From Gemmatimonadales bacterium (GTDB lineage: Bacteria > Gemmatimonadota > Gemmatimonadetes > Gemmatimonadales > GWC2-71-9), in NCBI GenBank assembly GCA_039794085.1, contig JBDIWC010000027.1, positions 1-56,338 of the forward strand: a DNA stretch of 56,338 nucleotides, given 5' to 3'. Within the stretch, counting starts at the first letter, position 1. Every line of letters starts with the position of its first letter. The position numbers were made by a program. This document shows, piece after piece, positions 30,801-33,800 of the stretch.

Positions 30801-33800
30801 GCGAACACGAAGAACGTGCTGCACCAAGGCCGCAGTCCCCCGTGGGCCAGGATGCCGTTGCAGCAGGCCCCCATGGCGTGCTCCCGGATGCCCCAGTGAA
30901 TCACCCGGCCCGGCGTTCCCGGCCCGTAGGATTCGGCGGCGCACAGGTCGGTACCGGTGGACCCGGCGAGATCCGCCGATCCGCCCATGAGAGTGGGAAT
31001 GGCCTTCATCAAGGCTTCGAGGGTCTTGGCCGATGCCTGGCGGGTGGCCAAACCGCCCTCCCCGAAGGTGGGGAGGTTCCCGTCCCATCCGGCCGGAAGC
31101 TCCCCGGCGAGAGCGGCGGTCAGGGCGGCGGCCTCTGCAGGAGCAACCGTCTGCCAGGCGTTCCATCGCTCCGTCCAGTCCTCGCGGTGGGCCGCGCCCG
31201 TCACCCGGCACGACTCCATGAACTCCCGCGCCTCGCCGGGCACGGAGAAGGGAGCCTCGGGCCAGCCCAGGATGGCCCTGGTGCGGGCCACCTCGTCGGC
31301 ACCCAGAGGGGCACCGTGGGCCGCGGAGGTGTCGCGCTTGGTGGGGGCAGGGTCGCCGATCACGGTCCGCAGCACGATCAGGGTGGGTCGCGCGGTTTCG
31401 GCACGGGCCCGAACACAGGCCTCGTCGATCGCCTCCAGGTCGGTCCCGTCCTCCACCCGGAGAACATGCCACCCGTACGCGGCGAACCGGGCCCCGACGT
31501 CCTCGGAAAAGGCGAGATCGGTCGATCCGTCGATCGTAATCCGGTTGTCGTCGTAGATCACGGTCAGCCGGTCGAGTTGCAGATGGCCCGCGAGGGAGGC
31601 GGCCTCGGCCGACACCCCCTCCATCAGGTCCCCGTCGCTGGCCAGGACCCAGGTGCGATGATCAATCACCTCATGCCCGGGGCGGTTGTACTGCCGGGCC
31701 AGGATCCGCTCCGCCATCGCCATGCCCACGGCGTTGGCAACCCCCTGACCCAGGGGCCCGGTGGTGGTTTCCACGCCCGTGGTGTGCCCCCGCTCGGGGT
31801 GGCCCGGGGTACGTGACCCCCACTGCCGGAAGGCGCGAATCTCGTCGAGCGAGAGGTCGTATCCGGTGAGGTGCAGCAGACTGTACAGGAGCATCGAGGC
31901 ATGGCCGCAGGACAACACGAAACGGTCCCGGTCGGGCCAGTCCGGCGCCGCGGGGTCGTGCTTGAGGTGCCGGGTCCAGAGGACGGTCGCCGCCGGTGCC
32001 AGGGCCATGGGGGTGCCGGGGTGGCCGCTGGAGGCCTGTTCCACCGCATCCATGGCCAGGACACGGATGCTGTTGATGGCGGCCCAGATACGGGGATCAT
32101 CGAGCGAGGGGATGGTCACGGGATGTGCGGCCGGGGCGGTGGAGGTCAGGGTGCTGCTCCTTGCGGCGGGCGGTCGGATTCGGGCGAACTCGAAAGGAAA
32201 CTTAACCCCGTGGTCCACCCCGCTCGGTCACCCCCCCCACCCTGCACCGGGTATTGGGGACTGGGTACGGGGTATAACTGGGTATTGGGTGCTGGGGGTA
32301 CTGGGTACTGGGTGCTGGGTATTATGTCCTATGTCCTAAGTCGGCAGAGCCGGAACCAAAGAGGGGCCTCGGGGTCGCGCGTGGGTTTTCTTCGGCATGG
32401 GTTCCAGTCCCTCTGGAGCCCTCTGCCCACCCCCAGAGCCAACCACAAGAAGCACAAAAGGCACAGAAACCTCTCTCGCCCCTGGTGGGCCCCATAGCCC
32501 CGAGGTGTGCCTCTTGTGACTTCTGTGCTTATTGTGGCCATCCCCCTCGCACGGCGCGGTCGTGGCGATCGACGTGTCTGACGGGGGGGTCGGGAGTTGC
32601 CCAAAAGGATTGTTGCCGTTTTGTGTTCAATCTTGTCCGCAAGGAACTATGTCCTATAATGTCCTATGACCTGTGTCGTCCATCTTCGAACGGCCAGGTC
32701 CTCAGGACTCGATCCCGACCTCGATATATCGGTAGGCCGGGTCCTCATCGTGTGCCACCGGCGCAAAGAGCACTCCAGCGGACCCCACCGCAAACCAGCC
32801 ACCGACCATGTTGCGCGGAGAGTCGAGCTCCTTCACAATCGGCGCAAACCACCGCCGGATGTGCCGTACTTCCGGCGCCCGACGACCCAGAAGGGCCAAG
32901 AGCGATCCACTTCCCCCGGTGGCCCGGAGAAAGTGGGCCAGAGCGTGTGCCCGCTGGGCAAATTCGACCGCCTTCACCCCGGGCTGATCGAAGAGTACCG
33001 CGCCCTCGAACACGTCCATGGGGGGCGCATCGAGACGGGGACCGAGGTAGACGTACTGCTGCTCGGGGGCCGGGCCGGGTCCCCGTCGCTCGATCATGAC
33101 CGCCCCGGTCTCACTGGTGAGCCGGGCGGCATGCAGCAGGTCGTCGTCGAGGAGGATCCCCACGGCGCCGGTCCATTCCAGGGCGGCGAGTGCCGTGTCC
33201 ACCGGGCAACCCAGCACGTCGTCGAATGCGATCAGCCTGGGGGACTCGCCCGCCCGCTGGATGAAGTGCGCGAGGGCGTCGGCCCGCTCGCCAATGGTCC
33301 GAATGACAAGTGTCCCTGGAACGGTCATGGTGAAGTGTACACAGATTGCGGGCCAGGCGCCTAGGGGAGGGGTGTTGGGCGTTGGGTGTTGGGTGGCGGG
33401 GAGCGGGTAATGGGTATTGGGTTTTGGGGATCGGTGCTGCGGCGGGGGGGCCAATACCCGATACCTGGTCCCCAGCCCCCAATACCCGGAACCCAATACC
33501 CAGAACCCAGTACCCAGTACCCAGTACCCAGTACCCCCTACCCAGAACCCAGTACCCGGTGGGGGGGGGAGGTCGATTTCGAGCCGGGATATTGACAAAA
33601 CCGTGACCGTGGCCGACCTTAGTTGACACCATGTACGTCGCGGTCACGATTCGCTCTGGACGTTCCTGAGGACGCCGCCCGGCACCAACGCCGGACGGTC
33701 TTTTTTTGCCCGGTGCCGGTGCTCCGGGCACCACGAGCCGCAGGCTCATCAGCCACGAGGTTGCAGCAATGGCCAGGGGTACCGTAAAGTGGTTCAATGA

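What a model noticed while it worked through the whole genome (the two positions that open the first line are those of the whole stretch)
32702..33328. Orphan 208-aa protein of unmatched fold is inherited together with the large ncRNA: a candidate RNP partner
g02228 has no family in any table, is single-copy, and in relatives lies directly upstream of the ~410-nt structured RNA on the same strand, with the same presence/absence pattern down to the one family genome that lacks both. I read it as the dedicated protein partner or processing enzyme of that RNA, as OapA is to OLE RNA. It would be a new RNA-binding protein family with a two-repeat alpha/beta fold and invariant His/Cys/Asp residues that could bind a metal.
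Evidence so far: Homologue in 41 of 42 other family genomes and 1 of 1 of the sister family, 0 of 57 others; G090 lacks both protein and RNA. Gene within about 1.5 kb upstream of the RNA in 28 of 29 relatives' loci, including the congeneric genome. 1129 homologue clusters, the 120 listed all without Pfam; profile search of 1.8 billion representatives gives 130 hits. AlphaFold pLDDT 84, pTM 0.82; invariant C41, D63, H128, H132, H156.
(Added by a program. Inside this text positions count along the whole contig: contig position 1 is position 1 of the stretch shown here. "Call 12" and the like, gene names such as g00115 and contig names such as C1 are that model's own, and its searches are not shown. 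The text may have been shortened before it was handed on; [...] marks where a part breaks off. The agent that wrote the report below was given it as the finding of a first reader that could run no searches.)

Follow-up and report, generated by a model that had tools for sequence, protein, structure and literature searches.

The report
Dispensable orphan protein beside large ncRNA
This conserved 208-residue protein of two internal repeats, which matches no family or solved fold we searched, sits next to a new 420-base structured RNA gene across two Gemmatimonadales families, but it has been deleted several times while the RNA stayed, so it is not that RNA's obligatory partner and is at most a likely optional helper.

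Summary
The gene is real: single-copy, under purifying selection, two internal repeats, confident model (pLDDT 90), with no family or fold match. It occurs in 282/300 genomes of its family, 15/16 of the sister family and 0/134 other Gemmatimonadota. Linkage to the RNA is tighter than first reported: within 900 nt in 85 of 87 gene loci (63 genera); the other two end at contig edges. The OapA-like reading fails. Nine genomes in four genera keep the RNA at an intact locus but have lost the gene, several leaving remnants. Extra RNA copies in stress-gene islands carry no gene. Gene and RNA have separate promoters and are convergent in 15/85 loci. The 'lacks both' genome lacks the whole block, and a neighbouring orphan shows the same pattern. 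H128 is not invariant, and the protein is acidic. Best reading: a dispensable stand-alone binding protein in an inherited neighbourhood (45%). Optional RNA accessory 30%; obligate partner 4%. For the accessory reading: the protein was never found without the RNA, and 3 of 4 loss lineages have a decayed RNA arm (p about 0.06). The scan noted the RNA before on other DNA (e1-4773820, e1-2441221).

The parts
32702..33328 (-). The gene: 208-aa cytoplasmic protein of two beta-alpha-beta-alpha-beta-beta-beta repeats (about residues 6-96 and 118-205)
   Evidence: dN/dS 0.05-0.06 within its genus
33334..33339 (-). Predicted -10 hexamer (TACACT) 5 nt before the ATG: the gene's own leaderless promoter
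   Evidence: sequence; TAnnnT 4-9 nt before the start in 72 of 77 family loci against 5 of 77 in a control window
32320..32678 (.). About 350-bp dispersed repeat with direct terminal (GGACATA)n ends, at the point where congeners continue into the RNA gene. The RNA itself is on G000:C68, about 484-900 (+), outside the window
   Evidence: no contig of four runs spans it
30107..32218 (-). Transketolase-like ORF (named from its sequence by recall) that follows the gene only in this assembly; in both congeners it follows sequence matching contig C18
33769..33975 (+). Cold-shock domain gene, divergent neighbour; near the gene in 49 of 53 family loci, 0 of 11 sister-family loci
37468..38025 (-). Neighbouring orphan gene used as control: 35/36 family and 11/12 sister-family genomes, missing in the same two genomes that lack gene and RNA

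Best explanation
The gene encodes a conserved, single-copy, dispensable protein of two internal repeats, with its own predicted leaderless promoter, that likely works as a stand-alone cytoplasmic binding module rather than as the RNA's dedicated subunit. Shown: an internal duplication, a confident predicted alpha/beta fold, purifying selection, tight linkage to the RNA gene, and repeated loss while the RNA remains. Inferred: the two repeats pack as a pseudo-dimer, and the conserved Arg, Trp, Asp and Glu residues (R15/R126, R31, D36, W52/W160, E80, R81, R150, R159, W178, E203) line a site for a phosphate-bearing or anionic ligand or a partner protein, without metal catalysis. The linkage would mostly be vertical inheritance of a slowly rearranging block, kept through small local inversions.
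For: Gene lost at an intact locus with the RNA kept in G020, G107, G143, G166, G098, G193, G094, G226 and G309. Remnants of promoter and ends prove deletion, and a gene-bearing genome nests among the losers, so probably 2-3 separate deletions in one genus (support 88/89 and 86/92). Extra RNA copies lie among Usp, CBS, BON, Hsp20, PRTase and HPF genes with no second gene copy. Separate promoters: RNA promoter motif in 87 of 96 RNA loci, gene -10 in 72 of 77. Convergent in 15 of 85 loci; a gap over 550 nt in 37 of 70 tandem loci. The control orphan has the same distribution. 10 of 27 non-operonic neighbour pairs from a sister-family genome are still within 1.5 kb in this genome. pI 5.0-6.3 in 43 homologues. 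The protein stays under purifying selection (dN/dS 0.07-0.22 in the 12 of 36 pairs printed) in a genus whose RNA is cut to a short core.
Against: The gene-RNA junction is the tightest in the block: RNA next to the gene in 53/53 and 6/6 long loci; no other neighbour reaches this in both families. No gene-bearing genome checked lacked the RNA. Three of four loss lineages have a decayed or missing RNA 5' arm motif, seen in 17 of 63 genera (p about 0.06). The top but non-significant fold hits include the nucleic-acid binders AP2 (Z 6.0, rmsd 2.8, 58 aligned) and WGR (Z 5.3). No ligand or partner was identified, and I had no model coordinates to check whether the conserved residues cluster.
Confidence: 0.45

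Rival explanations
1. Optional accessory RNA-binding protein (OapB/OapC-like in role). The two beta-sheet-plus-helix modules bind the one part of the RNA found wherever the gene is found, the ~100-nt kissing-loop core, and stabilise or chaperone it; lineages can drop the protein.
For: Nested distribution: protein never found without the RNA. 85 of 85 loci with room are linked, in 63 genera. The core is kept when the 5' arm or 3' domain is lost. Kissing loop 98% paired with a compensatory G-C to A-U change in 8 of 40 sequences. Six Arg conserved in 42 of 43. Weak AP2/WGR-like topology. Neighbours include a YhaM-like exoribonuclease (E 4e-32, below cut-off) and a cold-shock protein. dN/dS is raised to 0.34 in the one pair from the genus with repeated losses.
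Against: The RNA core is essentially unchanged in genomes that lost the gene. Acidic protein. Fold hits lie within the background range. A conserved block explains much of the synteny. No binding data.
Confidence: 0.3
2. Obligate dedicated partner of the RNA, as OapA is to OLE.
For: Both are confined to the same two families; tight linkage.
Against: Nine genomes in four genera keep the RNA without the gene, three of them in assemblies of 10 contigs or fewer (G107, G166, G193). Extra RNA copies lack the gene. Separate promoters and convergent arrangements.
Confidence: 0.04
3. Metal-dependent enzyme (for example an RNA-processing nuclease) using Cys/His/Asp ligands.
For: C41, D36 and E80 invariant in 43; D63, H132, H66 and E203 nearly so.
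Against: H128 only 28/43. H132 to Phe/Tyr, H66 to Gln/Leu and H156 to Tyr occur in genes still under selection. A single Cys and no recognisable motif; no enzyme fold above background.
Confidence: 0.07
4. Works with a co-transcribed protein neighbour rather than the RNA: the secreted-looking orphan whose start overlaps its stop in many family loci, or the YhaM-like nuclease directly upstream in the sister family.
For: The orphan overlaps the gene's stop codon and is in 25 of 53 family loci; the HD gene is near it in 38/53 and 7/11 loci.
Against: Neither is co-inherited. The HD gene was not found at E 1e-30 in this genome, in 11 of 36 family or in 5 of 12 sister-family genomes. The orphan is in 0 of 11 sister-family loci and stays after the gene is deleted.
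Confidence: 0.1

Closest known systems
OLE RNA with OapA (obligate) and OapB/OapC (optional)
   Same: A large structured orphan bacterial ncRNA with an adjacent gene of unknown function; adjacency was the first clue to OapA (PMC11332333, passages). The RNA here has a K-turn-like 5' arm, read by eye from the alignment.
   Different: No sequence match of RNA or protein. OapA is a membrane protein almost completely mutually inclusive with OLE; this protein has no transmembrane helix in its model and is lost independently. Unlike OapB/OapC, which also occur without OLE, it was never found without the RNA.
AP2 and WGR beta-sheet-plus-helix nucleic-acid-binding domains (PDB 6sy0, 2cr9, 7s68)
   Same: A three- to four-stranded antiparallel sheet packed on one helix aligns with residues about 60-140 (Z 6.0, rmsd 2.8, 58 aligned; Z 5.3, rmsd 3.0, 71 aligned).
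   Different: Z lies within the background for this search, identity is 9-12%, about a third of the protein is covered, and kinase N-lobes and shell proteins score almost the same.
Tandem bacterial microcompartment shell proteins (CsoS1D 3f56, EtuB 3io0)
   Same: About 200-aa tandem alpha/beta repeats; best whole-model hits (Z 5.6, rmsd 2.9-3.0, 68-82 aligned).
   Different: Only residues about 58-145 align; no sequence match; no shell genes among the neighbour families annotated.

Membership tests
OapA-type obligate partner of a large ncRNA | Gene adjacent to the RNA gene | tested here: met
   85 of 87 gene loci, 63 genera
OapA-type obligate partner of a large ncRNA | Near-complete mutual inclusiveness with the RNA | tested here: not met
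   9 genomes in 4 genera with RNA and no gene at an intact locus; gene-less extra RNA copies
OapA-type obligate partner of a large ncRNA | Membrane protein of OapA sequence family | tested here: not met
   No Pfam or NCBIfam match; soluble alpha/beta model with helices of 12-14 residues
OapA-type obligate partner of a large ncRNA | Direct, specific binding to the RNA | not testable with these tools
   No protein-RNA complex tool; needs EMSA or pull-down
Optional accessory protein of a large ncRNA (OapB/OapC-like role) | Presence correlated with the RNA but not required | tested here: met
   Protein only in RNA-bearing genomes among those checked; a control orphan correlates equally
Optional accessory protein of a large ncRNA (OapB/OapC-like role) | Known RNA-binding fold or basic surface | tested here: inconclusive
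   Best Z 5.6-6.0; pI 5.0-6.3 but six conserved Arg; surface not examined
AP2 / WGR domain proteins | Significant structural or sequence match to the domain | tested here: inconclusive
   Z 6.0 and 5.3, background level; no Pfam hit
Cys/His metalloenzyme | Invariant set of metal ligands | tested here: not met
   H128 28/43; H132, H66 and H156 replaced by Phe, Tyr, Gln or Leu
Known housekeeping or Rfam RNA (for the neighbouring RNA) | Rfam match | tested here: not met
   No hit at gathering score, only chance-level hits by E-value; RNase P RNA and tmRNA are present elsewhere in the genome

The most novel reading that the evidence does not exclude
A new ribonucleoprotein: a pseudo-symmetric two-repeat protein of an uncatalogued fold binds the kissing-loop core of a new ~420-nt modular ncRNA, whose extra copies sit in universal-stress and ribosome-hibernation gene islands, and acts as an optional chaperone or specificity subunit of a stress-response RNA in abundant uncultured Gemmatimonadales.
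Probability: 0.25. Interest if true: 0.82.

Novelty: categorically new. Interest (0 to 1): 0.5.

Why it matters
The novelty label is meant narrowly: neither the protein nor the RNA matched any family or fold searched, but no function is shown. Large orphan ncRNAs are a long-standing puzzle, and a linked protein was the entry point for OLE. Here natural variants give a ready test set: genomes with RNA but no protein, a short natural RNA still beside the gene, and gene-less paralogues in stress islands. If binding is shown, this is a new RNA-binding fold and a new RNP class. If not, it is a clear case of synteny and co-occurrence in one clade misleading, plus a small well-folding structural target.

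Tried and rejected
Family searches: FtsX_ECD (E 0.08), Arg_repressor_C (best E 0.005, 4 of 43 members) and a designed repeat protein in the PDB (E 0.04) were rejected as chance. My first guess, an ACT-like fold, is not supported by the predicted topology or fold searches. Foldseek against PDB and viral libraries gave nothing at E 0.001; a TBP-like or helix-grip reading of residues 27-140 did not stand out. Residues 1-56 and 142-208 were barely tested, so a new fold is not proven. The protein atlas gave no usable hit and only scores under 0.9. Four longer homologues are frameshift or read-through artefacts, not fusions. Five of six weak second hits (E about 0.005) are DUF58-like proteins (named by recall) and chance; the sixth is a true pseudogene remnant in G226. 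The idea that the protein binds the 5' K-turn-like arm, prompted by its deletion in G020, is not sustained: other gene-less genomes keep the arm, and gene-bearing genera lack it. The Rfam ncS035 match (23 bits against 79, in 1 locus; not in 10 further loci) was rejected. My first pseudoknot string was one column off and was corrected. The first neighbour clustering merged families and was redone. Reads: no RNA holder listed; no contig spans the repeat, so mis-join versus real rearrangement is unresolved. The simple promoter and terminator scan did not detect the gene's or the RNA's signals. No complex prediction was run. Literature: no paper held 'Gemmatimonad' with noncoding RNA, motif and covariation; one irrelevant paper for 'Gemmatimonad' plus 'RNA motif'; nothing relevant in the 25 listed of 1,356 for looser terms. 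Subscription papers and supplements were not searched.

Full report
Observation. The ORF at 32702-33328 (-) encodes 208 aa. It has no Pfam, NCBIfam or PHROGs family, no solved relative by sequence and no paralogue in its genome. Homologues carry Gemmatimonadales labels. A 43-sequence profile finds it in 282 of 300 same-family genomes, 15 of 16 sister-family genomes and 0 of 134 other genomes of the phylum. The 132 hits among 1.84 billion representatives are mostly fragments; 5 align over nearly the whole profile and none of the 13 opened is a remote full-length relative. dN/dS is 0.05-0.06 in its genus.

Protein anatomy. AlphaFold2 gives pLDDT 90, pTM 0.86 and two beta-alpha-beta-alpha-beta-beta-beta units. 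The halves align (hhalign prob 91%, E 1e-6), and a sister-family protein carries LHAAWF in both repeats. Foldseek finds nothing. The wide structural search gives best Z 5.6 for the whole model (shell proteins) and 6.0 for residues 27-140 (AP2 6sy0, rmsd 2.8, 58 aligned; WGR 5.3), within background, so the fold is unmatched but not proven new. pI is 5.0-6.3. C41, D36, W52, E80 and W160 are invariant in 43; R15, R31, R81, R126, R150 and R159 are in 42 of 43; H128 is in only 28, and other histidines change to Phe, Tyr, Gln or Leu. This argues against a metal site. A TAnnnT hexamer lies 4-9 nt before the start in 72 of 77 family loci (control 5 of 77; sister family 4 of 10), so the mRNA is probably leaderless from its own promoter.

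The RNA. It is about 415-435 nt, with its own promoter motif (87 of 96 loci) and a terminal hairpin with a U-rich tail. 90 of 115 predicted pairs show a two-sided change. A six-pair kissing loop in the core is 98% paired, with one compensatory change in 8 of 40 sequences (kin are not independent). It has no Rfam match; RNase P RNA and tmRNA exist elsewhere. It was found in 33 of 33 family genomes and in 1 (weakly) of 117 others in the class sample, and in 15 of 16 sister-family genomes. It is modular: some genera lack the 3' domain or the 5' arm, and genera g73 and g51 keep only the core next to the gene. Second copies occur in many genomes. Of the 13 such copies fetched, about half lie among Usp, CBS, BON, Hsp20, phosphoribosyltransferase, beta-CASP or HPF-CSD genes, and the gene is single in those genomes. 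Two earlier scan notes describe this RNA.

Linkage. In a set chosen to span genera, 85 of 87 gene loci have the RNA within 900 nt (63 genera; 70 tandem, 37 of them with a gap over 550 nt that often holds a secreted-looking orphan; 15 opposite). The other two end at contig edges and have an RNA match on another contig. In long loci the RNA is beside the gene in 53/53 and 6/6; the cold-shock gene 49/53 and 0/6, the HD gene 38/53 and 4/6, lemA 28/53 and 4/6 (these loci are biased to close relatives). The junction is therefore the tightest in a generally conserved block. As a baseline, 10 of 27 non-operonic neighbour pairs in 400 kb of a sister-family genome are still within 1.5 kb in this genome (small sample, crude gene calls). 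In this assembly the gene runs into a ~350-bp repeat with dozens of copies and then a transketolase-like gene; both congeners run gene to RNA, and contigs C68 (RNA) and C18 begin in repeat sequence. No contig of four runs spans the repeat, so mis-join versus rearrangement is open.

Co-inheritance fails as a specific test. Of 18 family genomes without the gene, nine keep the RNA at an intact locus: G020, G107, G143, G166 (g19), G098, G193 (g5), G094 (g81), G226, G309 (g73). In g19 the -10 box or the last codons remain, and gene-bearing G183 nests among the losers with moderate support, so there were probably two or three deletions. G226 and G309 hold remnants. The RNA of G183 and of G107/G166 is nearly the same. 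Of the other nine, G322 breaks at the RNA; G065, G124 and G283 show an RNA copy without block neighbours; G310 has a weak match; G024, G168, G248 and G280 show neither. G024 and sister-family G058 also lack the neighbouring orphan, the HD gene and the orthologous lemA, so the whole block is missing there. That orphan has 35/36, 11/12 and four weak hits in 12: the same pattern as the RNA.

What still favours a link. No gene-bearing genome checked lacked the RNA. Three of the four loss genera have a decayed or absent 5'-arm loop motif, which a crude pattern misses in 17 of 63 genera (binomial p 0.06, uncorrected for sampling depth). dN/dS is 0.34 in the one g19 pair. Against this, G094 lost the gene with the motif intact, and g1, g51, g73 and g82 keep the gene under selection without it; any binding site would have to be the core. 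The neighbourhood includes a YhaM-like exoribonuclease and a cold-shock protein.

Mechanism. Most likely (45%) a stand-alone cytoplasmic pseudo-dimer that binds an anionic ligand or a protein through conserved Arg, Trp and acidic residues; this step is inference from conservation only. Next (30%) an optional accessory that binds the RNA core. Obligate partner 4%, metalloenzyme 7%, partner of a neighbouring protein 10%.

Comparison. [quoted passage not shown] This protein meets adjacency and fails mutual inclusiveness. Other papers were seen only as search listings. No description of gene or RNA was found; subscription journals and supplements were not covered. Terms such as K-turn, leaderless, transketolase and DUF58 are applied from my own knowledge.

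Unpublished genomes: G016 is one row of the alignments and is in the tallies; G167, G090, G192, G243 and G218 are positives in the tallies. No conclusion rests on them alone, and none is among the nine loss genomes.

Verdict. A real, unclassified, lineage-restricted protein with an unusually stable link to an undescribed RNA gene, but dispensable for that RNA. Interest 0.5.

Noticed in passing
L170-L184 (for example G063:C8, G151:C4, G103:C1, G033:C8): Extra copies of the ncRNA core plus 3' domain, mostly without the 5' arm, often sit among universal-stress genes (Usp, CBS, BON, Hsp20, PRTase, beta-CASP, HPF-CSD fusion); a lead to a stress or dormancy role of the RNA.
   Followed up: partly
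G000:C68 about 626-691 (L031); alignment A4 columns 13-18 and 73-78: Kissing-loop pseudoknot in the RNA core, 98% paired with a compensatory change in the sister family; the core is the only part kept in all variants seen.
   Followed up: yes
L186, L187, L233-L239 (genus g73); L185, L240 (g51): Natural minimal version of the RNA (promoter, core of about 100 nt, short hairpin, terminator) still next to the gene; in g51 it is flipped.
   Followed up: partly
alignment A3 columns about 90-151: The RNA's 5' arm has a K-turn-like junction, and its inner loop resembles, by recall, the glycine riboswitch P3 pocket; no Rfam support.
   Followed up: no
window 32320-32678: About 350-bp dispersed repeat with direct (GGACATA)n ends, dozens of copies, tandem on contig C52, at many contig ends; scarce in congener G002. 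It appears to differ from the inverted-array repeat noted earlier in this genome.
   Followed up: partly
window 33370-33562: Inverted arms plus tandem 7-mer array (CCCAGTA-type) between the gene and the cold-shock gene.
   Followed up: no
L186:3224-4240 and L097:7784-8809: YhaM-like HD exoribonuclease gene convergent with the RNA in many family genomes and directly upstream of the gene in the sister family; not found in this genome.
   Followed up: partly
window 37468-38025 (-) and 33985-34554 (+): Two more family-less conserved genes in the same block; the first has an Ala/Lys-rich tail and the same two-family distribution.
   Followed up: partly
whole genome G000: No Rfam 6S RNA match in this 95% complete genome.
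   Followed up: no
L089: One locus with the same gene-RNA block comes from a record titled Bacillota; probably a mis-binned contig.
   Followed up: no
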